A stretch of 64,000 bases of DNA from Oceanispirochaeta sp. (GTDB lineage Bacteria > Spirochaetota > Spirochaetia > DSM-2461): NCBI GenBank assembly GCA_963666275.2, contig CAXXOA010000001.1, positions 992,001 through 1,056,000 of the forward strand, given 5' to 3'. This document shows, piece after piece, positions 40,302-62,050 of this stretch (positions within the stretch are counted from its first letter, which is position 1; each line of letters starts with the position of its first letter). The notes under the pieces were generated by a model. That model saw nothing but the letters and a program-made list of their open reading frames with translations. It searched no databases and had not been told where the DNA came from. The translations under genes were made by a program, and so were the position numbers.

Positions 40302-40512
40302 TAAATGGCTGGAAGAACAGGGATTGGGCAATATCGAATATCTCTGGTGTTAAGCTCAGGGGTATATTTTATCAAATCAGGATTTTGTTTGCTCCATGGA
40401 GTGAACCGCCTCCGGTCACAGCTTCGCTGTTGCTCGTTTATACTTCCGACCCGTGGAGACCCGCATACTCATTTGGTGTGGGGGGGAGGGTAAAAGCCTC
40501 GGGCTACCCGAT
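40295..40512 (+). mobile_element. Degenerate 3' remnant of group IIC intron lineage A (RT C-terminus + DV-DVI)
   Basis: NKWLEEQGLGNIEYLWC followed by gtgaaccgcc...ggctacccgat, homologous to 47735-47914; 40-bp insert in DV. Confidence 0.9.
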
Positions 40513-40552
40513 TTCTACAGCTTTTTCATAATTTGCTGAATTACTCCGTATT

Positions 40553-41392
40553 CTATAGGATTCTGGCACTCCCCCCCACTTGCACACTCTCTATATTGCC
40601 TTGATTATTAGTCACTTTTACAAATATTCTTGAAGGGAGATTCAAAGTATATCCTTGTTCAAACTCGAAAGAACGATCGTTATTATCATCGCTATATTTC
40701 GACAAATAACAGGCTAATGCTCCATTTGATGTTCCTGTTGCAGACTCCTCATCTATTCCATATCTTGGTGCAAAGTTTCTTGTATGTGCATCGGCCTCAT
40801 TTATTGATTCAAGGCAAAAAGCATGTATTCCAACAACATCATATTTTTCACTTATCTTAGAAATACAATTGCTATTGGCTTTAAGCTGATTTAATGTCTT
40901 TAAATTTCGTATTGGAAGAATAATATCCCGTAATCCTGTTGATACAATCTGGATTGGCAAATCCGCATAGAAGTCATTATGATCCATGCTAAAGCAATTC
41001 ATTAATTCTTTTCTATCTATAATATCACCGAATTTAGGAATATTTTGTTCCATATAAACAAGTTTATCATATATTTCAAGCTGTAATACTCCAGCTCTAG
41101 TCTCTTGAGTATAACGACCACTTTTGATCACATGAAGATCTCTTAATAAATTAAAAGTTGCGATTGTTGCATGACCGCATAAATCAACTTCAGAAACAGT
41201 AGTGAAAAATTTGACCTTGAAATCAGCATATAAAGATTTCATAATAAACGCTGTCTCAGAAAAGCCAATGTCTTTCGCAATATTTAGCATTTCGTTCTCT
41301 GATAATATATCTGCATCCAAGACCACGCCAGCAGGATTCCCTCCCATATTATTATATTGAAATGCAGATATTTTATAGATTTGTCTATTCAT
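40553..41392 (-). CDS. PhzF family epimerase/isomerase (cassette gene)
   Basis: GGNPAGVV, GFSETAF, EVDLCGHATIA, RNFAP..GIDEESATGTSNG, EQG. Confidence 0.93.
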   Translation of the reverse strand: MNRQIYKISAFQYNNMGGNPAGVVLDADILSENEMLNIAKDIGFSETAFIMKSLYADFKVKFFTTVSEVDLCGHATIATFNLLRDLHVIKSGRYTQETRAGVLQLEIYDKLVYMEQNIPKFGDIIDRKELMNCFSMDHNDFYADLPIQIVSTGLRDIILPIRNLKTLNQLKANSNCISKISEKYDVVGIHAFCLESINEADAHTRNFAPRYGIDEESATGTSNGALACYLSKYSDDNNDRSFEFEQGYTLNLPSRIFVKVTNNQGNIESVQVGGSARIL

Positions 41393-41445
41393 AGATCGGT
41401 CCTTATTATCAAGTGAAGGAAATCTTCAATCATATAACTATCCTT

Positions 41446-42150
41446 CTAGTTTGCATATTCCCTTAACCAACTAGTTATTTCTTTTTCGGAATGTAGGTAG
41501 TGCTCACCATTTTTTACTATTGTAAGAGTTGCACTATATTTATTTATAAAGGAATCTATTATATATCGTTCAGTAAGATTGTCCTTCTCACCGTAAATAA
41601 TATGTGATTCAGTGTACCATCCTGAGATTTTGTTTTCCCTTATATATGTTAAATATTGCCAAGAAAGGGTCTCTCCTATTGGTATTGCGATTTCTTTTTT
41701 GGTTTTAAGATCATTTTCTGAAACATTAAACCATCCCATCATATTTTTTATTAATGCTTCCATATCTAATATTGGGGACTCAAATAGGCTTTTTTTAATT
41801 TTATAGTTTTCAAATGCGACTAAGCTAAAGTATGCCCCGATACTTGAAGCATATATCGATATTTCATTCCATTTATTACTTGCAAAAGTATAAACATTTT
41901 TTAATTCAGGCACACAATTTTGAATTATAAACTCTTTATCATTATCTTTTCGTTCACCATGCTTTGGTAAATCAAAACTTATTACTTGAAATCCTTTATA
42001 ATTACCTTCTTCCGCTAATCTCTCAGCATATTCTTTATGACTATCCTTTCCATGAATATATATGTATACTCTATCTGATTTTTCCCCCCATATTATTGCT
42101 GGGATACCATGAATTATCTGTTTATCTTTTTTCATTCCTAGCCTATTCAT
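41446..42150 (-). CDS. Alpha/beta hydrolase (cassette gene)
   Basis: IYIHG, SFDLPKHG, ASSIGA nucleophile elbow, YGEKD, GEH. Confidence 0.85.
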   Translation of the reverse strand: MNRLGMKKDKQIIHGIPAIIWGEKSDRVYIYIHGKDSHKEYAERLAEEGNYKGFQVISFDLPKHGERKDNDKEFIIQNCVPELKNVYTFASNKWNEISIYASSIGAYFSLVAFENYKIKKSLFESPILDMEALIKNMMGWFNVSENDLKTKKEIAIPIGETLSWQYLTYIRENKISGWYTESHIIYGEKDNLTERYIIDSFINKYSATLTIVKNGEHYLHSEKEITSWLREYAN

Positions 42151-42439
42151 TCTTTTTCTTATTTAACTTTATTTAAGCGCCGAAGGCGTCAGCCTGACGA
42201 GACTGTAGAAACACTCTATTTGAATATTTTTCCCTCTTTTTAAAATAGAATTATTCAGAGAATTATTCATCTCTCCATTTACGAATTTCTATCCATTAAA
42301 CCCGCATATATTCCATTACAATTGAATATATCTCTTAAAACTTCCAATCTCATTGGTTCTTTCGTATTCCTACAGACTATACCGCTGAAATTTCCCGATA
42401 TTATGCACCATGCAATACCGTAACCATTATATTCTGAGT

Positions 42440-42514
42440 ATGCTTCCGACCCGTGCGGACCCGCATGCTCATTTGGTGTGGGGGCTGGAGCTTAAAAGCC
42501 TCGGGCTACCCGAT
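42440..42514 (+). mobile_element. Group IIC intron DV-DVI remnant
   Basis: ccgtgcggacccgcatgc..tggtgtgggggctggagcttaaaagcctcgggctacccgat, followed by TTACGC (attC core remainder). Confidence 0.88.
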
Positions 42515-42532
42515 TTACGCAGATTTTAAATT

Positions 42533-42808
42533 TTATTTATATGCTTCATCATGAGACCCAATGCTTATGGGAATTATAGTATCATCTTGTATCAGGAACT
42601 CAACTGTAATTCGGTATGAAATATTAATTGATATGCTATATAACTCTGATAAATTACCTTTTAATTGATGTAAGCGTAGAGATGGGTGATTGGGGTTTAT
42701 TTCCATTAGCTGCAATGCCTTAGAATACTGTTTTTTTATCTCTGGGTGTTTTTTTAAGAATTTTGCAGCTTTTTTTTCGTAACTATGTGTAAATATAATT
42801 TTAGGCAT
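42533..42808 (-). CDS. RelE/YafQ-like type II toxin
   Basis: HPSLRLHQLKG, YSISINISYRI, SIGSHDEAY; overlaps the antitoxin stop. Confidence 0.88.
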   Translation of the reverse strand: MPKIIFTHSYEKKAAKFLKKHPEIKKQYSKALQLMEINPNHPSLRLHQLKGNLSELYSISINISYRITVEFLIQDDTIIPISIGSHDEAYK

Positions 42809-43058
42809 CAGTTATTCTTTCTATATGGTCTTCTATACTACCGGTATAATATTTTCCTTCTTGTATATCTTTCTTAGCTTCAACCAATGCTGCTTCAAGT
42901 TCACATTCTCTTAAGCGGTTGTATTCATCCATTGAAAGAACAACATATTTACTTTTACCTCGGACAGTTATGACTGCTTCATTCTCCTCTGAGATGACTT
43001 GATCCAGAACAGATACACCTTTAACTTTCAAATCATTGGCTGTTATACTATTAAACAT
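42801..43058 (-). CDS. Phd/YefM family antitoxin
   Basis: ITANDLK...AVITVRGKSKYVVLSMDEY. Confidence 0.9.
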   Translation of the reverse strand: MFNSITANDLKVKGVSVLDQVISEENEAVITVRGKSKYVVLSMDEYNRLRECELEAALVEAKKDIQEGKYYTGSIEDHIERITDA

Positions 43059-43072
43059 ATTGTTACCTCATT

Positions 43073-43105
43073 ATTAATAGTACTATTAATTGTGCTGTCT
43101 ATCAA
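43073..43105 (-). promoter_or_regulatory. TA cassette promoter with palindromic operator
   Basis: TTGATA-17bp-TACTAT on -; perfect 18-bp palindrome attaatagtactattaat (43073-43090) over the -10 box. Confidence 0.8.
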
Positions 43106-43254
43106 TTGTTTAACAGTTATATTTTCATATATGTAAGAAAAGTATTTTAAACAACTTCGAAGCATAATCCTCCATCGGAGATTTGAATTTCCTGATAAAT
43201 TTTCTTTCTCTTTTCCAGTAATATCTTTAACGTAAAAAATAAACATTTAATTCT

Positions 43255-43365
43255 GTGTAACATTCTTTTCATTTGCAGACCGTAAACCTGGCGTGAAACT
43301 TGCCTGCGTAGCAGAAAAGCAGGTTTCATGACAGTAGGGCTGTCAATTGCAAAAGCAAGTTAAAT
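43255..43365 (-). other. attC site, intron-free (111 bp)
   Basis: gtgtaac-att-cttttcatttg ... tgaaacttgc-ctgc-gta-gcag-aaaa-gcaggtttca ... caattgcaaaag-caa-gttaaat. Confidence 0.88.
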
Positions 43366-43386
43366 AGTGCCCTTAATGCGTTTTTG

Positions 43387-44598
43387 CTAATACAAGAATC
43401 CAAAGAGATGTAATGGGATCTCGTATCTGGATCCGTATAATATATCATCTTTTACTAAATAGCTGTTTTCTAAATTTTCCTTTATCTGTTTTCTGTCCTT
43501 ATTTTTTCCACCGACTTCAAAGAAGTTGTTCTGAATCTTAAAATCACCAATTCTGCTCATGTGAACTTTGAGATTGGCGTTTAAAGTCATTCTGATGAAA
43601 AATATTTCTCTCAATGTTCCAATATTGGATTCAAAGCCGATTTCTTCAGCTACAGATTTATATATGTCCGGATTATCAAGAAATATCTTTTCAGTCTGTT
43701 TAAGAACTGCTGATCCTGATTTGTCCATTGATAAAAGAGTAATCACTCCTGTCTCATGCAGTATATTCAGGTAATTCTGTATTGTTTTGTTATCAAGCCC
43801 AAGATTCTTGGCTATGCTGTTCCTGTTCAATTCTCCGGGGGGGATGGTTGCCAGATAGCTGATAATGCGTTTGAAATTTATCAAATTCTCAGTTTTCAAT
43901 TTATAGTGGTTGGATATATCCTCATAAATTGTCTTATCAATGATCCTTAAGATTTTCTGATTGTATGTGGAAATCCCTTCTTGAGCGAAAGGATAATACC
44001 CACACCCTAAATATTCTTTGAAATGACCCCTGAGTTTTGGCACATCGGCTATTTTCGATTCAAAGTTCGACCTATTGGAGATTAAGTCATTAATAGTAAT
44101 TATACCTGTATCAGCGATATCATTGAAAAGGAGATACTCTCTAAATGATAAACCACCAATTCTGTAAATAACTCCTCTTCTGGATAAATCATATGTACCC
44201 TTGATCAGATCAATGCTGGAACTTCCTGAGAAGATGATTTTAATGTCCGGGTAGGCATCATATATATTTTTTAATTCCTGGTTCCAGTTCGGGTATTTAT
44301 GTATTTCATCCAGGAAAAAGTATTTTATACCATTTTCTTCGTATAGATCATTCACAAAATCTATTAAATTGTTTTGGGTGAAATAAATATGGTCTATAGA
44401 TGCATATATAGCTTCGTCAGGATTTGATATATTTTCTTTGATGTATTGAAGTAATAATGTAGTCTTACCCGTACCTCTTGGGCCAATTAACCCTGTAAGT
44501 CGATTCTCTGTATTAAAACTATCAAATATGTATCGGTGGTGAGGGTAGTTAGTCTGACTGAGAAGTCGTTTATATATAGCGATAAAATTATTCTTCAT
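43387..44598 (-). CDS. AAA+ ATPase (AAA_14/DUF4143-type) cassette gene
   Basis: GPRGTGKTT, FFLDEIHKY, SGSS, LSFREYL, G.YP, KIFLDNP, FEVGGK. Confidence 0.88.
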   Translation of the reverse strand: MKNNFIAIYKRLLSQTNYPHHRYIFDSFNTENRLTGLIGPRGTGKTTLLLQYIKENISNPDEAIYASIDHIYFTQNNLIDFVNDLYEENGIKYFFLDEIHKYPNWNQELKNIYDAYPDIKIIFSGSSSIDLIKGTYDLSRRGVIYRIGGLSFREYLLFNDIADTGIITINDLISNRSNFESKIADVPKLRGHFKEYLGCGYYPFAQEGISTYNQKILRIIDKTIYEDISNHYKLKTENLINFKRIISYLATIPPGELNRNSIAKNLGLDNKTIQNYLNILHETGVITLLSMDKSGSAVLKQTEKIFLDNPDIYKSVAEEIGFESNIGTLREIFFIRMTLNANLKVHMSRIGDFKIQNNFFEVGGKNKDRKQIKENLENSYLVKDDILYGSRYEIPLHLFGFLY

Positions 44599-44665
44599 TG
44601 GAATATACTCTACCTATATGCGTCATAATTATGATTGTACTCCAATATAAATAAATTTCAAGTCT

Positions 44666-44836
44666 ATTTAACACCCAAATATGATGCGAAGCGGCCTGAC
44701 CGAAGGGCAGGTATAGGCGCTTTTCTTGCTCCTTTATTCTAAACACCAGTTCGTTATTTGAGAAGAACAATTACTTTATCGAAGCTATTTCTGCAAGAAA
44801 TGTGATCTATAGCTTCGACTGCATCATTTGTTATCC
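44666..44836 (-). other. attC site, intron-free, one arm apparently shortened
   Basis: atttaac-acc-caaatatgatgc-gaagc ... ttttcttgc ... gcaagaaa ... gcttc-gact-gcatca-ttt-gttatcc. Confidence 0.75.
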
Positions 44837-45789
44837 AATTTTCTATATCTTGTCATTCTACCTTTACCTGAAGACACAATCCTCTTTTCTTCTAGTAATT
44901 GCTTTAAATCTCTGCTTGCTGTTGCACTAGATATACCTTTACAGACACTCATGTATTCTTTTCTATCAAACCAATCTTCTAGTTTTGATAAAGCTATTTT
45001 TGATCGTTTTTCATAATCAGGATTAACTGGTTTTGATTCATTAATTGTATTTCTTAGAGCTTCATTTATTACGTTCAACATGAATTCAATAAAAACAGTC
45101 GATTTTCCAGTATTATCCGATATTGATAACACTTTATAATACTCTTGCTGATTATCCTTAATTAACTTTTCTATTGGAACAAATTCAAATATCGGATTCA
45201 CATTCATCAATATCCGTGTTTGCCAAAATCTGCCCATACGACCATTTCCATCTTCAAAAGGGTGAATAAATTCCATTTCATAATGAAATACACAGCTTTT
45301 AATGATTTCTTGATCTTCATCGTGTTTTAAATATTGAAATAAATCTTTCATCAAACCTGGTACCATTTCTGAAGTAGGAGCAATATGTGTAACTTCTTTA
45401 CCTTTCATTATCCCAACTTGAGATTTTCGAAATTCACCAGGATTTGGAACTAAACCCTCCATTAAGATCCTATGTGCGTCTAAGAAATCTTTATTACTAT
45501 GTGGTTTAAAGGAATTTAATCGCTCATATGCGACAATTGCATTTTGAACTTCTAGAATATCTTTACTTGGGGCAATTATTCTTTGATTATCAATCAAGGC
45601 AGTAACATTCTCAATATTTAAAGTGTTACCTTCTATTGATAAGGATGATTGAATTGTTTTAATTCTATTTTGTCTTCTGAGTCTTGCTTCTGGTTTTACA
45701 AGCATTAAACTTTGGCAAATACCCAATCCTTCAGTTATTTGACCATATAATTTTAAAATTCGGTTTGTAATTTCATACGGTGGTTTCAT
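44824..45789 (-). CDS. Fic family protein with C-terminal HTH (cassette gene)
   Basis: SSLSIEGN; canonical HPFEDGNGRMGR; ISSATASRDLKQL HTH. Confidence 0.95.
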   Translation of the reverse strand: MKPPYEITNRILKLYGQITEGLGICQSLMLVKPEARLRRQNRIKTIQSSLSIEGNTLNIENVTALIDNQRIIAPSKDILEVQNAIVAYERLNSFKPHSNKDFLDAHRILMEGLVPNPGEFRKSQVGIMKGKEVTHIAPTSEMVPGLMKDLFQYLKHDEDQEIIKSCVFHYEMEFIHPFEDGNGRMGRFWQTRILMNVNPIFEFVPIEKLIKDNQQEYYKVLSISDNTGKSTVFIEFMLNVINEALRNTINESKPVNPDYEKRSKIALSKLEDWFDRKEYMSVCKGISSATASRDLKQLLEEKRIVSSGKGRMTRYRKLDNK

Positions 45790-45796
45790 CTCTTAA

Positions 45797-45820
45797 TGAT
45801 AGCATCATTTGATACTATCA
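45797..45820. promoter_or_regulatory. Inverted repeat just upstream of fic (probable autoregulatory operator)
   Basis: tgatagcatca-tt-tgatactatca (10/11 match). Confidence 0.6.
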
Positions 45821-45853
45821 CCAACAGGTCATAAATATTCTGTGCCGAAGGCT

Positions 45854-46004
45854 GGATAACGTCCGGTTCTGTGGAATGCCGTTAAATGGCGCTTTTCTTG
45901 CTTTACTATGTTAACCAGCTTTTTCATAGCTAAAAATGCTTACCGAATTAATAATAAACCCAAAGCAAGAAATGTGACATAGGCATTTCCATAGCAACCG
46001 TTTG
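45854..46004 (-). other. attC site interrupted by intron A1 (completed by 47915-47920)
   Basis: ggataac-gtc-cggtt-ctgtggaatgcc ... ggcatttccatag-caaccg-ttt-g|ttatgt. Confidence 0.9.
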
Positions 46005-47914
46005 GTACGCCTGACATGGCAATAAACTTATGAGTTGAAAGTCCACTACAGCTACCCACGTATAGTAAACATGCTATACCAACTGTTAGCCGACGGCAAG
46101 GGCAATTCCGTGAGGAATTGTCTGGAGGAAGCCTGAGTGCAAAACCGGGAGCCCATGTATAAGAATGTGATATGGAATGCGAGTCACGCAGCATTCCACC
46201 CCCCAGTTCCGGAGGCTGGTCGCAAACAAGTTTGCTGCTCGCCCATGCAGCCTAGGGCGAGTCAGCCAATGATGACGATGCCCCGTGGGTGAGGGATAGG
46301 GTAAATCACAGGGTTGTCCGGCCCTGGTCGTAAACTTCGCTTGCTGCTCGCCCATGCAACCGGGGCATAGTAGCCAACGCCCGGAGTAATGTCCGGTTCA
46401 TGGTGAAGGCCTGAACATTTCACAAGGAGGAGCCTTATGGTTCTCAAAGGAACAATTTCAGTTTATGCCGGAATCACTTTTGGCGGACCATGGAGAAACA
46501 AGCCTTGAACGAATCTATGATGGATTTGATTTTATCCTCTGAAAATATGCACAAAGCCTGGAAACAGGTCAAACGCAATGGAGGTAGCCCTGGAATCGAC
46601 GGTATCACTGTCGAGAAGTTTCCAGGATATCTGAAAACCAGATGGCCTAGAATCAAACGAGCTTTGCTCAACGGGTACTATGTACCTTCTCCGGTGCTGA
46701 GGGTAGAAATCCCGAAGAAATCCGGAGGCTGGTCGCAAACAAGTTTGCTGCTCGCCCATGCAACCGGGGGAAAACGGATGCTGGGAATCCCGACAGTTCT
46801 AGACAGGGTTATCCAGCAGGCTATTTCACAGGTTCTGAATCCCATATTTGATCCGGATTTCTCGGAGCATAGCTATGGATTCAGACCGGGAAGATCGGCT
46901 CACGGAGCAGTGAAACAGGTAAATCAACATGTCAAATCCGGGTATAGATACGCCGTGGATCTGGACTTGGAAAAGTTCTTTGATACAGTTAATCATGATA
47001 TCCTGATGCATTTTGTGGCTGTAAAAGTCTGGGACAAATCTGTCCTCAGACTCATCGGCCGTTACCTGAGAGCCGGTATTCAGTTGGACAATGGAAAAGT
47101 GATTCCTACAGACATCGGCACACCCCAAGGCGGGCCCTTATCACCTCTGCTTTCCAATATCCTCCTTGATCGGTTGGATATGGAACTGGAGAGAAGAAAT
47201 GTGAGGTTCGCACGGTATGCAGATGACACTATCCTTTTAACGAAGAGATTGTGTGATGCTAGGAAGATCCTACAGGAAGTTTCAATATTTCTGGTAAGGA
47301 AATTGAAATTGGTAGTGAATCAGGAGAAAACGAAAGTTGCAAAGATAAGGGAGTGCAGTTTCCTGGGATTCACATTCAAGGGTAAGAAGATTCGCTGGAC
47401 AGAGTCGTCCTTTGAGGATTTTCGGTATCATCTGAAATATCTGACAAGGCGTTCCTGGGGTGTTTCCATGGAATACAGAATCGGGAAACTCAATGAGTAT
47501 ATCCGGGGCTGGATGAACTACTATGGGATCTCCCAATATTACAGCCCTATACAGAATCTTGATGACTGGCTCCTTAGGAGGATTCGCATGTGCTACTGGA
47601 AACAGTGGCGATATCCCAGAACGAAAGTCAGGAAACTGATGGAACTGGGAATTCCGAAAGATTTTGCCATTATCACCGGTGCCAGTAGTAAATCCTATTG
47701 GCATCTCTCCAAGTCTTACGCTACCAATGCAGCTATGTCCAATAAATGGCTGGAAGAGCAGGGATTGGTCAATATCAAATATCTGTGGTGTAAAGCCCAG
47801 GGATATATCTGATCAAATCAGGATTTCGTTTGCTCCATGGAGTGAACCGCCCCGTGCGGACCCGCATGCGGGGTGGTGTGGGGGCTGGAGGTTAAAAGCC
47901 TCCGGCTACCCGAT
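46005..47914 (+). mobile_element. Group IIC-attC intron, lineage A copy 1 (1910 nt; 5' RNA damaged)
   Basis: 5' GTACGCC, DV gaaccgccccgtgcggacccgcatgcggggtggtgtg, 3' CCCGAT; 229-nt segment replaced and hairpin inserts relative to copy 2. Confidence 0.93.
46490..47812 (+). CDS. ltrA: Group II intron reverse transcriptase/maturase (no endonuclease domain), with 14-aa insert
   Basis: PGIDG, LGIPTVLDR, SYGFRPGR, DLEKFFD, GTPQGGPLSPLL, RYADD, domain X. Confidence 0.95.
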   Translation: MEKQALNESMMDLILSSENMHKAWKQVKRNGGSPGIDGITVEKFPGYLKTRWPRIKRALLNGYYVPSPVLRVEIPKKSGGWSQTSLLLAHATGGKRMLGIPTVLDRVIQQAISQVLNPIFDPDFSEHSYGFRPGRSAHGAVKQVNQHVKSGYRYAVDLDLEKFFDTVNHDILMHFVAVKVWDKSVLRLIGRYLRAGIQLDNGKVIPTDIGTPQGGPLSPLLSNILLDRLDMELERRNVRFARYADDTILLTKRLCDARKILQEVSIFLVRKLKLVVNQEKTKVAKIRECSFLGFTFKGKKIRWTESSFEDFRYHLKYLTRRSWGVSMEYRIGKLNEYIRGWMNYYGISQYYSPIQNLDDWLLRRIRMCYWKQWRYPRTKVRKLMELGIPKDFAIITGASSKSYWHLSKSYATNAAMSNKWLEEQGLVNIKYLWCKAQGYI

Positions 47915-47922
47915 TTATGTGG

Positions 47923-48786
47923 TCAATTATTTATTACCAAGTATTCAGTCAAACATAATTGATCATTCTTTTTTCCAATAACAAATAAGATATTTCTTTC
48001 AAAGTCATAATCTATAGAATATATTCTAGTTTCTTCTGAATTTATATTTTCCATTTTTGTTATACCTTCATCAATATTATAAAGCTTGAAATTGTTAATG
48101 CAAGAAGTTAGAAAACGATTATTACCAATATAAACAGCAGATGTTATAAGTTCTTTTTCATCTATTTTATACTTGTCTTCATTATTAGTTATATAATATT
48201 CATATCCTTTATACGGAATATTAATCCCATAAATGAAGTCTTTTGAATTTAATTTATGATCAAAAACCATTAATTCATTTTCTGTAATAACTGTCTCACA
48301 AAAGCCTGAAATTAATGAGTATTTTTGGATCTTTACTTTTTTTTCTCCAGGAAAATATCTCTCAATAAAAAAAGATGTATCAGTATCCCAGAAAATATTC
48401 CTAATGATTAAGAGTTCATCTTTACTTGTAATTAAAGCATCCAAATTTGAATCCAATCTATTCTCTTCAACTAAAGTAATTCCAGAGAACCAACCCGAAT
48501 GCCCTGAAATAAACAATAATGAATTATCCATGAAACTCATGCTAAAGATTGATAGTTCATCAGGAATAAGTGAGCTTATATTATTCCTTTCACCATTTTC
48601 ATCATAAAAATAGAGAGAATGCCCCATCGAAATATAAAAACCATTATTAGTTCCTGAAACAAGTAGTGGTAATCCTTCTCTATTGAAATAGAATTCATCA
48701 ATTTTCTGTAGTTCTAATGAATATAAATTTGTAAATATCAATATGACTAATAAATATGTAATTGCTTTTTTCATCATTAATTCCAT
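47923..48786 (-). CDS. Exported protein of unknown function (putative immunity partner)
   Basis: Signal peptide MKKAITYLLVILIFTNLYS; beta-rich; abuts the stop of the upstream gene within the same cassette. Confidence 0.7.
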   Translation of the reverse strand: MELMMKKAITYLLVILIFTNLYSLELQKIDEFYFNREGLPLLVSGTNNGFYISMGHSLYFYDENGERNNISSLIPDELSIFSMSFMDNSLLFISGHSGWFSGITLVEENRLDSNLDALITSKDELLIIRNIFWDTDTSFFIERYFPGEKKVKIQKYSLISGFCETVITENELMVFDHKLNSKDFIYGINIPYKGYEYYITNNEDKYKIDEKELITSAVYIGNNRFLTSCINNFKLYNIDEGITKMENINSEETRIYSIDYDFERNILFVIGKKNDQLCLTEYLVINN

Positions 48787-49844
48787 TAAAAGTAAAACGT
48801 TGAAGGATTGATTAATTTTCCATTGATATGCGTTCTAAAATCTAAATGTGGATTGGTAGACATGCCAGTTGAGCCGATAGAACCAATTATCTGACCTTGT
48901 TCAACCCATTGCCCATTTTCAACTGAAACTGTTGATAGATGAGAATATTGTGATGAAACTTTAAAGAAGGGAACATCTTTATCATTAGGAAATTGCTTTG
49001 CATAATCAATAAATAAACTGTTACCATAGGCATCAGATAGAGAACTATCAAATCTTATATAACCAGAATGAGCCGCGTATACTGGATCACCAAGAGGACA
49101 ATCATAATCAATCCCACCATGCCATCGGTTGATTTCTTCTCCTTGATAAAACAGCTTACAAAACCCATAATTTTCCGTTACAATTGGATCATCAACAGGA
49201 ACAATAAAACCTAATTCTAACAAACAAGATGGTCTTGTAATTTCAACATAGTGCCTAACAGGGTCACTTGCCTCCAATTGCTCAAAAGAATTATCATACA
49301 TGTCTTTATAATGATCGCTTACATTCTCGTAACAAGCTTTTTTATTCTCCTTTGGAGCAGGAGCGGGTGGAGTTTCTTCCTTCGGAGCAGATTTCATTAT
49401 CGGCTTATCATCATCTTCTCCATCTAGCCATAAATCTTCATAGATTAATTCTATTCTTTCTACTGCGATACCATTTGCTCTAAAATCTAATGTGGGGCCA
49501 ATCCAACGGCAGGGTAAAGCACGAAAGAAATTCCAACGTTTTACTTCTTCACCGCTTTGATCCATTAAAATAACTGAACCGCTTCTCCTTTCTACTGGCT
49601 TGTCGGAATGAATTACATCATAGTACCAACGGTATAAATCATCACAAGTAGAAATACCTTTTTCGAGAATCAAATTTGGGAAACGAGTTCTTCCCTCAAA
49701 TCGATGAATTCCATACCCGCCTTCTTCCACTTCATAAACATATTTTTCTGATTCGAGACCTTCACAACGAGAAAATGTTGTTGTTATGACTCCATCCAGT
49801 TCTAATGCAAAACAATGTGGTAAATAAGAATCTGATCTATTCAT
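48786..49844 (-). CDS. Phage tail tube (T4 gp19-like) domain fused to an M23 family peptidase domain
   Basis: FALELDG...FSRCEGL...EGG...NLILEKG...LYRW...RRSGSVILMD...RWNFFRALPCRWIGP...AVERIELIYE; P-rich linker; HGGIDY, PVYAAHSG, YSHL, V.QGQ.IG..GSTG.ST.PHLDF. Confidence 0.85.
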   Translation of the reverse strand: MNRSDSYLPHCFALELDGVITTTFSRCEGLESEKYVYEVEEGGYGIHRFEGRTRFPNLILEKGISTCDDLYRWYYDVIHSDKPVERRSGSVILMDQSGEEVKRWNFFRALPCRWIGPTLDFRANGIAVERIELIYEDLWLDGEDDDKPIMKSAPKEETPPAPAPKENKKACYENVSDHYKDMYDNSFEQLEASDPVRHYVEITRPSCLLELGFIVPVDDPIVTENYGFCKLFYQGEEINRWHGGIDYDCPLGDPVYAAHSGYIRFDSSLSDAYGNSLFIDYAKQFPNDKDVPFFKVSSQYSHLSTVSVENGQWVEQGQIIGSIGSTGMSTNPHLDFRTHINGKLINPSTFYF

Positions 49845-50128
49845 TACTAATCTCCCCAAATAATGATTTCTTGTTTTACATTTAGTAATTTACGTCATTA
49901 ATATATATTGATTCTTTTAATGATTCTTGTCACTAGATAATATGAATTGTTTTTCTTACAAATAACCCATTTTCTTCGTAGCATAATCCTCCACCGGAGG
50001 TTTCTTCCCAATTTTTCTCCCACTGGGGTTTCTTTCTATTTCATACTTATTCTTCCATCCGGCGGAAGAAATCTAATTCTATCCGTATAGTGTAACATAC
50101 AAAGGTGTATAATGAACAGCCGTAACCC

Positions 50129-50233
50129 ACATAACATCGATTTAACTAGCAGACAGATAGCTGGCGGATTCTGTGCCTGCAAAGCAGATAAGCACAGAAT
50201 GTGACCAGCCTGGCTGACTAGTTCAAATCCTTG
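50129..50233 (-). other. attC site interrupted by intron A2 (completed by 52265-52270)
   Basis: acataac-atc-gatttaactag ... attctgtgc-ctgc-aaa-gcag-ataa-gcacagaat ... ctagttcaaatc-ctt-g|ttagat. Confidence 0.9.
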
Positions 50234-52264
50234 GTACGCCTGACATGGCAATAAACTTATGAGGTGAAAGTCCTCTACAGCTACCCACGTATAGTAAACA
50301 TGCTATACCAACTGTTAGCCGACGGCAAGGGCAATTCCGTGAGGAATTGTCTGGAGGAAGCCTGAGTGCAAAACCGGGAGCCCATGTACAAGAATGTGAT
50401 AGAAGGCCCAGTTCTGGAGGTGAGTCAGCCAATGATGACGATGCCCCGTGGGTGAGGGATAGGGTAAATCACAGGGTTGTCCGGGGAATGTTTATTGTCT
50501 TATTCGGGGAGATCTGTCTGCAAGGCGGTAACACCGGTTTGACCGTGAGAATCCGGAGGATACCGGGGTAACAAATCCAGGCCTATCAGGGGATGACACT
50601 CTGATAAGGAGCCGTTTATACGGAACACAAAGAAGTCGTCACAGCGATTCAAACCGGATGATACAGCGTCAGCAGGAGTAATTCAACTGATAAGCAGACA
50701 GAAGTCAGCAGAAGGCATAGTAGCCAACGCCCGGAGTAATGTCCGGTTCATGGTGAAGGTCTGAACATTTCACAAGGAGGAGCCTTATGGTTCTCAAAGG
50801 AACAATTTCAGTTTATGCCGGAATCACTTTTGGCGGACCATGGAGAAACCAGCCTTGAACGAATCTATGATGGATTTGATTTTATCCTCTGAAAATATGC
50901 ACAAAGCCTGGAAACAGGTCAAACGCAATGGAGGTAGCCCTGGAATCGACGGTATCACTGTCGAGAAGTTTCCAGGATATCTGAAAACCAGATGGCCTAG
51001 AATCAAACGAGCTTTGCTCAACGGGTACTATGTACCTTCTCCGGTGCTGAGGGTAGAAATCCCGAAGAAATCCGGAGGCTGGTCGCAAACAAGTTTGCTG
51101 CTCGCCCATGCAACCGGGGGAAAACGGATGCTGGGAATCCCGACAGTTCTAGACAGGGTTATCCAGCAGGCTATTTCACAGGTTCTGAATCCCATATTTG
51201 ATCCGGATTTCTCGGAGCATAGCTATGGATTCAGACCGGGAAGATCGGCTCACGGAGCAGTGAAACAGGTAAACCAACATGTCAAATCCGGGTATAGATA
51301 CGCCGTGGATCTGGACTTGGAAAAGTTCTTTGATACAGTTAATCATGATATCCTGATGCATTTTGTGGCTGTAAAAGTCCGGGACAAATCTGTCCTCAGA
51401 CTCATCGGCCGTTACCTGAGAGCCGGTATTCAGTTGGACAATGGAAAAGTGATTCCTACAGACATCGGCACACCCCAAGGCGGGCCCTTATCACCTCTGC
51501 TTTCCAATATCCTCCTTGATCGGTTGGATATGGAACTGGAGAGAAGAAATGTGAGGTTCGCACGGTATGCAGATGACACTATCCTTTTAACGAAGAGATT
51601 GTGTGATGCTAGGAAGATCCTACAGGAAGTTTCAATATTTCTGGTAAGGAAATTGAAATTGGTAGTGAATCAGGAGAAAACGAAAGTTGCAAAGATAAGG
51701 GAGTGCAGTTTCCTGGGATTCACATTCAAGGGTAAGAAGATTCGCTGGACAGAGTCGTCCTTTGAGGATTTTCGGTATCATCTGAAATATCTGACAAGGC
51801 GTTCCTGGGGTGTTTCCATGGAATACAGAATCGGGAAACTCAATGAGTATATCCGGGGCTGGATGAACTACTATGGGATCTCCCAATATTACAGCCCTCT
51901 ACAGAACCTTGATGACTGGCTCCGTAGGAGGATTCGCATGTGCTACTGGAAACAGTGGCGATATCCCAGAACGAAAGTCAGGAAACTGATGGAACTGGGA
52001 ATTCCGAAAGATTTTGCCATTATCACCGGTGCCAGTAGTAAATCCTATTGGCATCTCTCCAAGTCTTACGCTACCAATGCAGCTATGTCCAATAAATGGC
52101 TGGAAGAGCAGGGATTGGTCAATATCAAATATCTGTGGTGTAAAGCCCAGGGATATATCTGATCAAATCAGGATTTCGTTTGCTCCATGGAGTGAACCGC
52201 CCCGTGCGGACCCGCATGCGGGGTGGTGTGGGGGCTGGAGGTTAAAAGCCTCCGGCTACCCGAT
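50234..52264 (+). mobile_element. Group IIC-attC intron, lineage A copy 2 (2031 nt)
   Basis: GTACGCC...CCCGAT; same length as copy 5 plus a 42-bp insert in the ORF. Confidence 0.95.
50840..52162 (+). CDS. ltrA: Group II intron reverse transcriptase/maturase, with 14-aa insert
   Basis: Same RT motifs including RYADD. Confidence 0.95.
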   Translation: MEKPALNESMMDLILSSENMHKAWKQVKRNGGSPGIDGITVEKFPGYLKTRWPRIKRALLNGYYVPSPVLRVEIPKKSGGWSQTSLLLAHATGGKRMLGIPTVLDRVIQQAISQVLNPIFDPDFSEHSYGFRPGRSAHGAVKQVNQHVKSGYRYAVDLDLEKFFDTVNHDILMHFVAVKVRDKSVLRLIGRYLRAGIQLDNGKVIPTDIGTPQGGPLSPLLSNILLDRLDMELERRNVRFARYADDTILLTKRLCDARKILQEVSIFLVRKLKLVVNQEKTKVAKIRECSFLGFTFKGKKIRWTESSFEDFRYHLKYLTRRSWGVSMEYRIGKLNEYIRGWMNYYGISQYYSPLQNLDDWLRRRIRMCYWKQWRYPRTKVRKLMELGIPKDFAIITGASSKSYWHLSKSYATNAAMSNKWLEEQGLVNIKYLWCKAQGYI

Positions 52265-52273
52265 TTAGATTGT

Positions 52274-56340: not shown

Positions 56341-57246
56341 TTACTTGAGTCCGGCTGTTACTGCCAGACTAATTTCCTGTTCATAATACATCATTTCAAA
56401 CTCTTGTGGAGAAATATATCCCAGAGGTTCCATGATCCGTTTGTTATTATACCAATCCACCCAGTCTAAAGTAGCCAGTTCAACCTGTTCAATCGAGCGC
56501 CAGGGACCATCTTTGTGAATGACTTCTGCCTTGTATAGACCGTTTATTGTCTCTGCCAGAGCATTGTCATAAGAGTCACCTTTACTCCCAACTGATGGAT
56601 CAATTCCTGCTTCAATAAGTCGTTCTGTATAGGAAATAGCCAGATATTGAGAACCACGATCACTATGATGGATCAGCTTTTCTGTTACCTGTCTTGCCCA
56701 CAATGCCTGATTGAGTGCATCCAAAGTAAAATCCGTTTTCATTGACGTTGATGCCCGCCACCCGACAATCATTCTTGAAAATACATCAATTATGAAAGCA
56801 ACATAAACAAATCCCCTCCAAGTGGAAACATAGGTGAAGTCAGCCACCCACAGCTCGTTTGGCCTGGAAGCAGTGAAATCCCGGTTTACAAGATCATCAG
56901 GCCTGTTATCTTTCGTCGGAATCGTTGTCCTGACTTTCTTACCACGAATTACACCACGAAGCCCCATGGCACGCATTAAACGCTCTACAGTGCATCTGGC
57001 GACGGGGATTCCTTCTTTATTCATGGCCTGCCAGACTTTTTTAGCTCCATATACACATCTATTCTCAAACCAGACCCGTTTGATTTCATCTTTCAGGTGG
57101 TTATCCCTTTTTACTCTTGGAGGCTCTCTGTCTGGATCTGATTGCCGTGATTTCATTTCGTAATAGGTTGATGGAGCTATCTGAATATTCTTACAGAGAG
57201 GCTCGACTCCATGATTTTCCCTATTCTTATCAATGAAATTGACCAT
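56341..57246 (-). CDS. IS3 transposase OrfB (DDE)
   Basis: WVADFTYV, HHSDRGSQY, SYDNALAETINGLYKAE. Confidence 0.95.
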   Translation of the reverse strand: MVNFIDKNRENHGVEPLCKNIQIAPSTYYEMKSRQSDPDREPPRVKRDNHLKDEIKRVWFENRCVYGAKKVWQAMNKEGIPVARCTVERLMRAMGLRGVIRGKKVRTTIPTKDNRPDDLVNRDFTASRPNELWVADFTYVSTWRGFVYVAFIIDVFSRMIVGWRASTSMKTDFTLDALNQALWARQVTEKLIHHSDRGSQYLAISYTERLIEAGIDPSVGSKGDSYDNALAETINGLYKAEVIHKDGPWRSIEQVELATLDWVDWYNNKRIMEPLGYISPQEFEMMYYEQEISLAVTAGLK

Positions 57247-57566
57247 TATTTCTTTCGGCGGTCGAGCTCCGCCTGGGCGAAATATGCTGATGCCTTACGC
57301 AATATCTCATTGGCTTCTCTTAGCTCACGAACTTCTCTTTCAAGTTCCTTTATTCTTGCCCGTTCTTCACTGGAGACGCCTTCCTTGATACCACGGTCTA
57401 TCTCGGTTTGTTTTACCCATTTTCTCAGAGACTCCGGAGTACACCCGGTTTTTGAGGCTATTGAAATTATTGCTGCCCACCGTGATTCATAGTCTTTTTC
57501 ATGATCAAAGACCATCCTGACTGCCCGCTCTTTAACTTCTTGAGCATACCTGATTCTTTTTCCCAT
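57246..57566 (-). CDS. IS3 transposase OrfA
   Basis: RAVRMV...LRKWV...[30 protein letters not shown]. Confidence 0.95.
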
Positions 57567-57616
57567 AACACAATCCTCTCATATAATTGTGTCTCCGGGA
57601 AACCCGGGGTGGTTCA

Positions 57617-58318
57617 CGGTATGCAGATGACACTATCCTTTTAACGAAGAGATTGTGTGATGCTAGGAAGATCCTAAAGGAAGTTTCAATATTTCTGGTA
57701 AGGAAATTGAAATTGGTAGTGAATCAGGGAAAAACGAAAGTTGCAAAGATAACGGAATGCAGCTTCCTGGGGTTCACATTCAAGGGTAAGAAGATTCGCT
57801 GGACTGAGTCGTCTTTTGAGGATTTTCGGTATCAACTGAAATATCTGACAAGGCGTTCCTGGGGTGTTTCCATGGAATACAGAATCGGGAAACTCAATGA
57901 GTATATCCGGGGCTGGATGAACTACTATGGGATCTCCCAATATTACAGCCCTCTACAGAACCTTGATGACTGGCTCCGTAGGAGGATTCGCATGTGCTAC
58001 TGGAAACAGTGGCGATATCCCAGAACGAAAGTCAGGAAACTGATGGAACTGGGAATTCCGAAAGATTTTGCCATTATCACCGGTGCCAGTAGTAAATCCT
58101 ATTGGCATCTCTCCAAGTCTTACGCTACCAATGCAGCTATGTCCAATAAATGGCTGGAAGAGCAGGGATTGGTCAATATCAAATATCTGTGGTGTAAAGC
58201 CCAGGGATATATCTGATCAAATCAGGATTTCGTTTGCTCCATGGAGTGAACCGCCCCGTGCGGACCCGCATGCGGGGTGGTGTGGGGGCTGGAGGTTAAA
58301 AGCCTCCGGCTACCCGAT
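57617..58318 (+). mobile_element. 3' part of lineage A intron (copy 4); RT truncated just before RYADD
   Basis: Matches 61304-62005; begins exactly at the IS3 end. Confidence 0.93.
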
Positions 58319-59913: not shown

Positions 59914-60016
59914 ATATAACGCCCGCATAACCTGTTTTCCGTACATGGCGGAAATCCTGCCTGCGAAGCAGAAAAAGCAGGATTTGTGACATAGGAAAAT
60001 CTGGTTCATGCGTTTG
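59914..60016 (-). other. attC site interrupted by intron A5 (completed by 62006-62011)
   Basis: atataac-gcc-cgcataacc ... aaatcctgc-ctgc-gaa-gcag-aaaaa-gcaggattt ... ggttcatgcg-ttt-g|ttatgt. Confidence 0.9.
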
Positions 60017-62005
60017 GTACGCCTGACATGGCAATAAACTTATGAGGTGAAAGTCCTCTACAGCTACCCACGTATAGTAAACATGCTATACCAACTGTTA
60101 GCCGACGGCAAGGGCAATTCCGTGAGGAATTGTCTGGAGGAAGCCTGAGTGCAAAACCGGGAGCCCATGTACAAGAATGTGATAGAAGGCCCAGTTCTGG
60201 AGGTGAGTCAGCCAATGATGACGATGCCCCGTGGGTGAGGGATAGGGTAAATCACAGGGTTGTCCGGGGAATGTTTATTGTCTTATTCGGGGAGATCTGT
60301 CTGCAAGGCGGTAACACCGGTTTGACCGTGAGAATCCGGAGGATACCGGGGTAACAAATCCAGGCCTATCAGGGGATGACACTCTGATAAGGAGCCGTTT
60401 ATACGGAACACAAAGAAGTCGTCACAGCGATTCAAACCGGATGATACAGCGTCAGCAGGAGTAATTCTACTGATAAGCAGACAGAAGTCAGCAGAAGGCA
60501 TAGTAGCCAACGCCCGGAGTAATGTCCGGTTCATGGTGAAGGTCTGAACATTTCACAAGGAGGAGCCTTATGGTTCTCAAAGGAACAATTTCAGTTTATG
60601 CCGGAATCACTTTTGGCGGACCATGGAGAAACCAGCCTTGAACGAATCTATGATGGATTTGATTTTATCCTCTGAAAATATGCACAAAGCCTGGAAACAG
60701 GTCAAACGCAATGGAGGTAGCCCTGGAATCGACGGTATCACTGTCGAGAAGTTTCCAGGATATCTGAAAACCAGATGGCCTAGAATCAAACGAGCTTTGC
60801 TCAACGGGTACTATGTACCTTCTCCGGTGCTGAGGGTAGAAATCCCGAAGAAATCCGGAGGAAAACGGATGCTGGGAATCCCGACAGTTCTAGACAGGGT
60901 TATCCAGCAGGCTATTTCACAGGTTCTGAATCCCATATTTGATCCGGATTTCTCGGAGCATAGCTATGGATTCAGACCGGGAAGATCGGCTCACGGAGCA
61001 GTGAAACAGGTAAATCAACATGTCAAATCCGGGTATAGATACGCCGTGGATCTGGACTTGGAAAAGTTCTTTGATACAGTTAATCATGATATCCTGATGC
61101 ATTTTGTGGCTGTAAAAGTCTGGGACAAATCTGTCCTCAGACTCATCGGCCGTTACCTGAGAGCCGGTATTCAGTTGGACAATGGAAAAGTGATTCCTAC
61201 AGCAATCGGCACACCCCAAGGCGGGCCTTTATCACCTTTGCTTTCCAATATCCTCCTTGATCGGTTGGATATGGAACTGGAAAGAAGAAATGTACGGTTT
61301 GCACGGTATGCAGATGACACTATCCTTTTAACGAAGAGATTGTGTGATGCTAGGAAGATCCTAAAGGAAGTTTCAATATTTCTGGTAAGGAAATTGAAAT
61401 TGGTAGTGAATCAGGGAAAAACGAAAGTTGCAAAGATAACGGAATGCAGCTTCCTGGGGTTCACATTCAAGGGTAAGAAGATTCGCTGGACTGAGTCGTC
61501 TTTTGAGGATTTTCGGTATCAACTGAAATATCTGACAAGGCGTTCCTGGGGTGTTTCCATGGAATACAGAATCGGGAAACTCAATGAGTATATCCGGGGC
61601 TGGATGAACTACTATGGGATCTCCCAATATTACAGCCCTCTACAGAACCTTGATGACTGGCTCCGTAGGAGGATTCGCATGTGCTACTGGAAACAGTGGC
61701 GATATCCCAGAACGAAAGTCAGGAAACTGATGGAACTGGGAATTCCGAAAGATTTTGCCATTATCACCGGTGCCAGTAGTAAATCCTATTGGCATCTCTC
61801 CAAGTCTTACGCTACCAATGCAGCTATGTCCAATAAATGGCTGGAAGAGCAGGGATTGGTCAATATCAAATATCTGTGGTGTAAAGCCCAGGGATATATC
61901 TGATCAAATCAGGATTTCGTTTGCTCCATGGAGTGAACCGCCCCGTGCGGACCCGCATGCGGGGTGGTGTGGGGGCTGGAGGTTAAAAGCCTCCGGCTAC
62001 CCGAT
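60017..62005 (+). mobile_element. Group IIC-attC intron, lineage A copy 5 (1989 nt, apparently intact)
   Basis: GTACGCC...CCCGAT, no inserts. Confidence 0.95.
60623..61903 (+). CDS. ltrA: Group II intron reverse transcriptase/maturase (426 aa)
   Basis: RT0-7 motifs, RYADD, domain X. Confidence 0.95.
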   Translation: MEKPALNESMMDLILSSENMHKAWKQVKRNGGSPGIDGITVEKFPGYLKTRWPRIKRALLNGYYVPSPVLRVEIPKKSGGKRMLGIPTVLDRVIQQAISQVLNPIFDPDFSEHSYGFRPGRSAHGAVKQVNQHVKSGYRYAVDLDLEKFFDTVNHDILMHFVAVKVWDKSVLRLIGRYLRAGIQLDNGKVIPTAIGTPQGGPLSPLLSNILLDRLDMELERRNVRFARYADDTILLTKRLCDARKILKEVSIFLVRKLKLVVNQGKTKVAKITECSFLGFTFKGKKIRWTESSFEDFRYQLKYLTRRSWGVSMEYRIGKLNEYIRGWMNYYGISQYYSPLQNLDDWLRRRIRMCYWKQWRYPRTKVRKLMELGIPKDFAIITGASSKSYWHLSKSYATNAAMSNKWLEEQGLVNIKYLWCKAQGYI

Positions 62006-62050
62006 TTATGTCGCCTCCATCTACCATCAATTTTATCATTTATGTTATGT

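What the first reader, a model, noticed from the sequence alone, without database searches (positions are those of the whole stretch)
40411..51120. A 35-42 bp hairpin micro-element that repeatedly parasitises the group II introns
Seen by comparison with insert-free copy 5: related inserts at 46216-46257, 46322-46363, 46729-46770, 51079-51120 and a diverged one at 40411-40450 (its tail atgcttccgac also at 42440-42450). Shared layout: C(T/C)GGTC-[5-6 bp stem, 2-3 nt loop]-TGCTCG-NNN-ATRC. The stem sequence changes while pairing is largely kept (gcaaac-aa-gtttgc; acagc-ttc-gctgt; gtaaac-ttc-gcttgc, imperfect). Each follows a CCG(G) target and ends in an imperfect copy of it (ccggagg/ccggggg; ccgcc/ccgac; ccgg/ccgg), i.e. 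about 35 bp plus a 5-7 bp duplication. There are at least four different target positions and no terminal inverted repeats; I did not notice copies outside intron DNA. Inference: a very small non-autonomous element, possibly moved by RT template switching, a HUH/REP-type transposase or the integron integrase acting on single-stranded hairpins.
Basis: partly seen in the sequence, partly recalled or inferred. Interest (0 to 1): 0.8.

Follow-up and report, generated by a model that had tools for sequence, protein, structure and literature searches.

The report
Tiny self-guided hairpin insertion element
A roughly 42-base hairpin-folding piece of DNA has jumped into introns, repeats, genes and ribosome-binding sites of spirochaetes and Firmicutes, apparently choosing its landing site by base-pairing with part of itself, while the enzyme that moves it is still unknown.

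Summary
The inserts are real but are not intron-specific and carry no target duplication. They belong to a 39-45 bp family: 2 nt-CTGGTC-[6-7 bp stem, short loop]-TGCTCG-N3-ATGCANCC-1-4 nt tail. 23 of 34 model hits in this genome lie outside introns. The exact pattern is in 21 of 41 related genomes and in many Bacillota. Filled and empty sites (introns, palindromic repeats, a Paenibacillus gene) show precise insertion, usually at purine^GG and often at Shine-Dalgarno sites. Both stems covary (97% paired). N3 pairs with the element's own 5' end, its tail and, partly, the target: a built-in guide, as in IS200/IS605 and REP systems. Introns are still a hot spot (7 sites in one intron family). No mover was found: Y1, Y2, IntI, intron RT, DUF559, PD-(D/E)XK and relaxase genes neither flank nor track it. 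No Rfam or literature match in the searches run. The scan earlier noted other micro-insert families on other DNA; two sequence look-ups for this one were blank. Verdict: new family, new variant of the REP/SDR kind.

The parts
40410..40449 (+). Diverged 40 bp element inserted in domain V of a 3' intron remnant, just after the CGC triad
   Evidence: (12 other copies empty here); triad position from recalled group IIC anatomy
42440..42449 (+). Right-hand tail of a second copy at the same domain V site; the intron remnant begins inside the element
46214..46255 (+). 42 bp element at site 1 in intron domain I (copy 2)
   Evidence: filled in 2 of 10 copies
46322..46363 (+). Hybrid 42 bp element: left half of a site-2 element, right half of a site-3 element; 228 bp of intron RNA between the two sites is gone
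   Evidence: site 2 filled in 3 other copies; site 3 filled in L015; X11 has 228 letters here; X4 has site 3 filled
46727..46768 (+). 42 bp element in frame in the RT gene of copy 2 (+14 aa, 440 against 426 aa)
   Evidence: (5 filled, 5 empty)
51077..51118 (+). Same in-frame element in the RT gene of copy 3
46173..46201 (+). A second, unrelated small hairpin insert replacing 5 nt of domain I, next to site 1
45999..47919 (+). Host group II intron copy 2 (three elements, deletion)
50231..52267 (+). Host group II intron copy 3 (RT insert only)
60010..62010 (+). Insert-free intron copy 5, used as the empty reference

Best explanation
A gene-less 39-45 bp insertion element that moves as folded single-stranded DNA. 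SHOWN: it inserts precisely, without duplicating the target, at many unrelated sites, mostly purine^GG; it forms tandem and nested arrays; an inner stem and a 3 bp closing stem around a fixed 5x5 internal loop are kept by compensatory change. INFERRED: the strand with C-GNA-G loops (minus strand as written) is the folded one; the N3 bases and the arm beside them act as a guide or splint that pairs with the element's own 5' end (circle or tandem junction) or with the target (insertion); one nick at each end and strand transfer by an enzyme supplied in trans, most likely of HUH (Y1-like) chemistry as in IS200/IS605 and REP systems, gives a small single-stranded circle that inserts at a matching site. 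The enzyme is not identified. Copies survive where tolerated (intron RNA, loops of other repeats, rRNA spacers, just before Shine-Dalgarno sites, in frame in protein loops) and are then multiplied by the host repeats and introns they sit in.
For: Filled/empty pairs: intron sites 2 of 10, 4 of 10, 5 of 10; palindromic repeats with a 5 nt loop against 47 nt; dynamin-like gene filled in 3 of 20 loci. Covariation in 95 sequences with a 15 nt core: 97.4% of cells paired, 259 changes on both sides against 64 shuffled; the pattern did not ask for pairing. N3 positions 1-2 pair with the two bases before CTGGTC (223 and 232 of 242), position 3 does not pair with the flank (100 of 242) but with the second tail base (172 of 218, shuffled mean 93, maximum 116): a pair that closes only across a circle, tandem or right junction. 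First base after the cut matches the element's first base in 116 of 146 sites (shuffled 101; C-starting elements before C in 9 of 14, G-starting in 8 of 126). Target bases +3 to +5 lean to GAG, the complement of the element's arm, also without GGAG sites (1.07 against 0.74 matches, 57 sites, p 0.0008). Loops: C-GNA-G on the minus strand in 68 of 123, on the plus strand 0 of 123. No orientation bias to transcription (14 against 15). 10 of 48 tandem neighbours differ in the core; nested copies.
Against: No mover found: no recurring transposase-like neighbour; Y1_Tnp not found in G012, G017, G018, G219, G272 and not associated with carriers (7 of 20 against 5 of 20). Circles and excision were not observed (only contigs could be laid). 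The guide signals are statistical; tail length had to be inferred and partly used the target; kin are not independent. Target +2 shows no pairing bias, GC-starting elements mostly sit before GG or AG, and closing stems have decayed in G272. Predicted DNA energies are weak (-1.9 to -5.3 kcal/mol) and the linear unit folds otherwise. High counts in G045, G272, G348, G219 are largely hitch-hiking in host repeats, so recent activity is not shown.
Confidence: 0.6

Rival explanations
1. No dedicated enzyme: short hairpin fragments are copied in by template switching or repair at forks and gaps, primed by 1-3 bases of homology; arrays grow by slippage.
For: No mover gene found; micro-homology after the cut; 38 of 48 tandem neighbours share the core.
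Against: The same two boundaries recur at unrelated sites in several phyla; a fixed internal loop and tail with freely changing stems look like a protein recognition surface; distribution is patchy (5 of 151, 4 of 201), unlike a universal host process.
Confidence: 0.15
2. A tyrosine recombinase (integron IntI or Xer type) recombines the folded strand as it does attC: closing stem, unpaired spacer, inner stem.
For: IntI lies 7.8 kb beyond the window; IntI-like hits in 16 of 20 carriers against 10 of 20 non-carriers; the element often sits in cassette-spacer repeats.
Against: No IntI over the cut-off in five carriers with 1-64 copies; G024 (one contig, 95% complete) carries 4 copies without it; a 42 nt circle leaves no duplex for the outer binding site (inference); no attC core motif in the consensus.
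Confidence: 0.1
3. A host-serving structure (regulatory hairpin at ribosome-binding sites, or protein-binding site) spread mainly by host repeats and gene conversion, only rarely mobile.
For: 22 of 87 independent GG targets are Shine-Dalgarno sites against 23 of 1122 controls; strong structural conservation; hitch-hiking.
Against: It also sits in reading frames, in intron domain V and inside other copies of itself; no orientation bias overall; DNA-type loops on the strand opposite the message at Shine-Dalgarno sites; absent at orthologous sites in 17 of 20 loci.
Confidence: 0.1
4. Group II intron RT inserts it by template switching during cDNA synthesis.
For: 7 sites in one 2 kb intron family, all in the sense orientation; 11 of 34 genome hits lie in about 0.5% of the genome.
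Against: Most copies are outside introns; both orientations to transcription; G018 has 17 copies and no intron RT at E 1e-40.
Confidence: 0.05

Closest known systems
REP elements with TnpA-REP/RAYT, and the ends of IS200/IS605 elements (PMC8266576, passages; PMC6006769, passages; PMC3116915, passages)
   Same: Short single-strand hairpin with functional mismatches, strand-specific, no terminal repeats, cleavage site chosen by pairing with a guide at the foot of the hairpin, clusters and insertions into other repeats, occasional in-frame insertion.
   Different: No GTAG foot; the guide bases vary and covary with the ends; the single unit, not an inverted doublet, is what is present or absent; head-to-tail arrays without spacers; no Y1 gene flanked by it in any locus examined.
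Small dispersed repeats (SDR) of Nostocaceae, e.g. SDR5 (seen only as one passage in PMC4390886; Elhai 2008 itself not held; other details recalled)
   Same: Very small gene-less module inserted precisely at a short target; mover unknown; recalled to occur in an intron and in genes.
   Different: Longer (39-45 against a recalled 21-27 nt), other sequence and phyla, target is purine^GG rather than a fixed octamer, two covarying stems and a guide-like segment.
CGTC-type repeats / NTS with Ssn GIY-YIG nucleases (PMC3733652, passages; PMC11893778, passages)
   Same: About 30-40 nt hairpin repeats processed as single strands; CGTC repeats were reported to lack a dedicated transposase.
   Different: No CGTC foot; stem sequence is free here, whereas SsnA needs the stem sequence; no stand-alone GIY-YIG gene in G012, G017, G018, G045, and the one in G000 has its own other repeat.
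MITEs (definition in PMC3733652, passage)
   Same: Non-autonomous, intergenic, may fold.
   Different: No 15-30 bp terminal inverted repeats, no target duplication, shorter than 70 bp.

Membership tests
GTAG REP / RAYT | GTAG tetranucleotide at the foot of the hairpin | tested here: not met
   consensus of 95 sequences on either strand
GTAG REP / RAYT | Y1 transposase gene flanked by the repeat | tested here: not met
   7 Y1 genes in G000 have other terminal repeats; 20 Y1 loci from carrier genomes hold no element
GTAG REP / RAYT | Strand-specific hairpin with conserved mismatches | tested here: met
   fixed 5x5 loop, covarying stems, strand-biased loops
IS200/IS605-type single-strand transposition | No target duplication; element end resembles the target; guide pairs with the cleavage site | tested here: met
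   (guide-target pairing is statistical and partial)
IS200/IS605-type single-strand transposition | TnpA Y1 present in the genome | tested here: inconclusive
   7 of 20 carriers, 5 of 20 non-carriers; the enzyme may have been lost or be too diverged
IS200/IS605-type single-strand transposition | Single-stranded circle and 5'-phosphotyrosine intermediate | not testable with these tools
   only contigs were available
IS200/IS605-type single-strand transposition | Orientation bias to replication direction | tested here: inconclusive
   copies lie on both sides by GC skew in G000; few independent events, not counted formally
MITE | Terminal inverted repeats of 15-30 bp and target duplication | tested here: not met
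attC / IntI substrate | R-box core motif and IntI in carrier genomes | tested here: not met
CGTC repeat / Ssn | CGTC foot and adjacent small GIY-YIG gene | tested here: not met
Nostoc SDR | Sequence identity with SDR families | not tested
   source paper not held
Curated RNA family | Match to an Rfam model | tested here: not met
   no match over the element in the window or in 20 loci (one sub-threshold radC hit at E 1.8 overlaps L128)

The most novel reading that the evidence does not exclude
A self-guided single-strand micro-transposon: one 42 nt fold holds the recognition surface, both cleavage sites and a changeable guide whose mismatched loop is displaced by the target, and it is moved by an enzyme outside the known Y1, Y2, IntI, GIY-YIG and relaxase families.
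Probability: 0.25. Interest if true: 0.85.

Novelty: new variant of a known kind. Interest (0 to 1): 0.64.

Why it matters
How the smallest bacterial repeats spread is a long-standing open question. This family gives exact ends, hundreds of natural variants, a testable guide rule (change N3, change the target) and many filled/empty pairs, so the mechanism can be tested with short oligonucleotides. If the mover is of a new kind it would be a compact, retargetable single-strand integration system. The element also damages group II introns (domain V hit, deletion between two copies), adds 14-residue loops to proteins and lodges at ribosome-binding sites.

Tried and rejected
Target duplication: rejected. 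Intron specificity: rejected. Assembly artefact: unlikely; same unit in many genomes, and a 490 nt contig of run X1 spans the RT insert, though X1 may be the source sample. Mover by neighbourhood: clustering of 1572 ORFs gave only the intron RT and rRNA shadows; Pfam on 126 of 178 flanking ORFs and 30 of 135 gave no recurring transposase; 3 of 9 viral loci lie before serine recombinase genes, probably one prophage module, not pursued. Mover by presence in 20 carriers / 20 non-carriers: Y1 7/5, IntI 16/10, intron RT 8/3, DUF559 5/1, PDDEXK_2 12/7, relaxase PF03432 0/0; Y2 in 1 of 5; GIY-YIG only UvrC-sized in 4 of 5. These tests are weak because copies may be old. Insertion into hairpin loops as a rule: not supported (149 of 198 against 445 of 592), though empty sites fold somewhat more strongly. 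CC upstream of the target is only a weak bias (32 of 201 against 608 of 5869). Plasmid records: no match. Literature: no paper with six 14 nt consensus strings; five further topic searches listed no description of this family; subscription papers and supplements were not seen. Runs with small shares were not used as evidence.
Full report
Setting. The window is G000:C1:992001-1056000. It holds several group II introns on the plus strand among minus-strand genes, with an integron integrase at C1:1063760, so the region is most likely a cassette array with attC-targeting class C introns (inference). The host is probably a free-living spirochaete (inference; not told).

Observation. The five inserts and the tail are present. 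Comparing intron copies across the genome gives site 1 filled in 2 of 10 copies, site 2 in 4 of 10, site 3 in 0 of 10 but filled in L015, site 4 (RT gene) in 5 of 10, site 5 (domain V) empty in 12 copies and filled at 40410 (one spurious row at site 2 dropped). A sister genome, G003, has two more sites in the RT gene (L320), so this intron family has been hit at seven positions. The copy at 46322 joins the left half of a site-2 element to the right half of a site-3 element, and 228 bp between the sites is missing; a contig of another study has those 228 letters, and another shows site 3 filled with a different core. The RT insert adds 14 residues at a gap after residue 72 of the solved GsI-IIC RT, which I recall as the tip of the fingers loop. 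Whether that RT still works was not tested.

It is a wide family. A structured scan found 35 hits in G000 against 1 in a Markov control. A covariance model gave 34 hits at E below 0.001, 11 in introns and 23 elsewhere (150 of 1096 candidates scored). The others lie in palindromic repeats that flank DUF559 genes (loop 5 nt empty, 47 nt filled), in four rRNA spacers, before a tRNA-Met gene, in a duplicated tRNA end, and before a Shine-Dalgarno site. The exact pattern is in 21 of 41 related genomes with 0 control hits. It is patchy: 5 of 151 genomes in the class of G044 and 4 of 201 in the window's phylum, each count including its centre. High counts often reflect residence in larger host repeats. 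In a Paenibacillus dynamin-like gene it is present in frame in 3 of the 20 best loci from 37 genomes and absent in 17.

Anatomy. Unit: 2 nt, CTGGTC, a 6-7 bp stem with a 2-3 nt loop, TGCTCG, three variable bases (N3), ATGCANCC, a 1-4 nt tail; tandem periods 39-45. The fixed letters are fixed partly by the search pattern, but pairing was not asked for: in 95 sequences with a 15 nt core 97.4% of cells pair, with 259 two-sided changes against 64 shuffled, and slid controls fall to 25-50%. N3 positions 1-2 pair with the two bases before CTGGTC (223 and 232 of 242), position 3 does not pair with the next flank base (100 of 242; 83 of 212 against 79 shuffled after dropping 38 poor stems) but does with the second tail base (172 of 218 against 93). 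So the element starts two bases before CTGGTC, the CC-N2-3 at its right end is its own, and nothing is duplicated. At C2:648534 both sides of the cut differ from the element's ends and the empty form is the tRNA gene itself, which fixes a single cut position. Odd loops read C-GNA-G on the minus strand in 68 of 123 cores and on the plus strand in none; such loops are, from memory, unusually stable in DNA. Orientation to co-oriented flanking genes is 14 against 15 among 91 loci.

Targets. Among 198 single copies the two bases after the cut are GG in 114 (tail length partly chosen with the target; 77 with a fixed 2 nt tail). The base before the cut is a purine in 75% of 201 independent flanks against 48%. 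22 of 87 independent GG targets are Shine-Dalgarno sites against 23 of 1122 controls, and bases +3 to +5 lean to GAG even without GGAG sites (p 0.0008), while +2 shows no pairing bias. GG-N-GAG is the complement of the element's own arm. The first target base follows the element's first base (116 of 146 against 101 shuffled). These signals suggest that N3 and the adjoining arm splint either the element's own 5' end or the target. Against this, GC-starting elements mostly precede GG or AG, and purine-rich intergenic DNA could add to the bias.

Mechanism. The closest working model is guide-directed single-strand transposition: in IS200/IS605 and TnpA-REP systems the cleavage site is chosen by pairing with a short guide at the hairpin foot and stem mismatches are recognised (PMC8266576, passages). 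Here one hairpin and one guide would serve both ends. Arrays follow because the right junction recreates a target; 10 of 48 neighbours differ in the core and nested copies exist. The enzyme was sought and not found. PMC3733652 (passages) notes no obvious correlation between tyrosine transposase genes and repeat families, so absence is weak evidence. The intron hot spot may reflect exposed single-stranded cDNA and tolerated, multi-copy DNA (inference).

Comparison and novelty. It works like a REP or IS200/IS605 end but fails membership (no GTAG, no linked Y1 gene). It is not a MITE, attC site, CGTC/Ssn repeat or Rfam family. The nearest kind is the Nostoc SDR modules, seen only through one passage (PMC4390886). 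No paper held the consensus strings, and searches listed no description; subscription papers and supplements were not seen. Of PMC6006769, PMC3116915 and PMC11893778 I read passages only. Earlier scan notes describe other micro-insert families; sequence look-ups for this one were blank. Verdict: a real, widespread, apparently undescribed family; new variant of a known kind; interest 0.64.

Noticed in passing
window 46173-46201; also G000 C3:269872: A second small hairpin insert in intron domain I; its 14 nt core recurs at C1:1548438 and C2:340012, the latter beside a tRNA-Gly gene.
   Followed up: partly
G000 C1:1063760-1064701: Integron integrase just beyond the window; the window looks like a cassette array with many attC-type introns.
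   Followed up: partly
L140-L146 (G000): Seven Y1 transposase genes, most bracketed by a short inverted repeat, resembling the TIRYT class.
   Followed up: partly
L340:1100-1950 (G000 C1:1676797): Stand-alone 135 aa GIY-YIG gene flanked by its own hairpin repeat family, like an Ssn locus.
   Followed up: no
L151, L152 (G000 C2:1912745, C2:1193624): DUF559 genes; at C2:1193624 flanked by a dispersed palindromic repeat with a 5 nt loop, a REP-like family tied to this nuclease.
   Followed up: partly
L346:2100-5900 and L347 (G219): Array of single small genes separated by about 130 bp repeats that carry the element, in a Clostridia-class genome where IntI was not tested; an IS110-like ORF (recognised by eye) ends the contig.
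   Followed up: no
L381-L387 (G348), L391-L400 (G272), L401-L414 (G045): Further host repeat families that each carry the element at one fixed position.
   Followed up: no
L133, L135, L136: Three prophage contigs carry different variants of the element just before a serine recombinase module after the lysis genes.
   Followed up: partly
window 56341-57566: IS3-family element with an ALIL frameshift signal next to a 3' intron fragment at 57615-58322.
   Followed up: no
window 46210-46258 and G000 C3:269860: The site-1 element occurs on both alleles of two flanking polymorphisms, pointing to gene conversion among intron copies; RT genes are mosaic too.
   Followed up: partly
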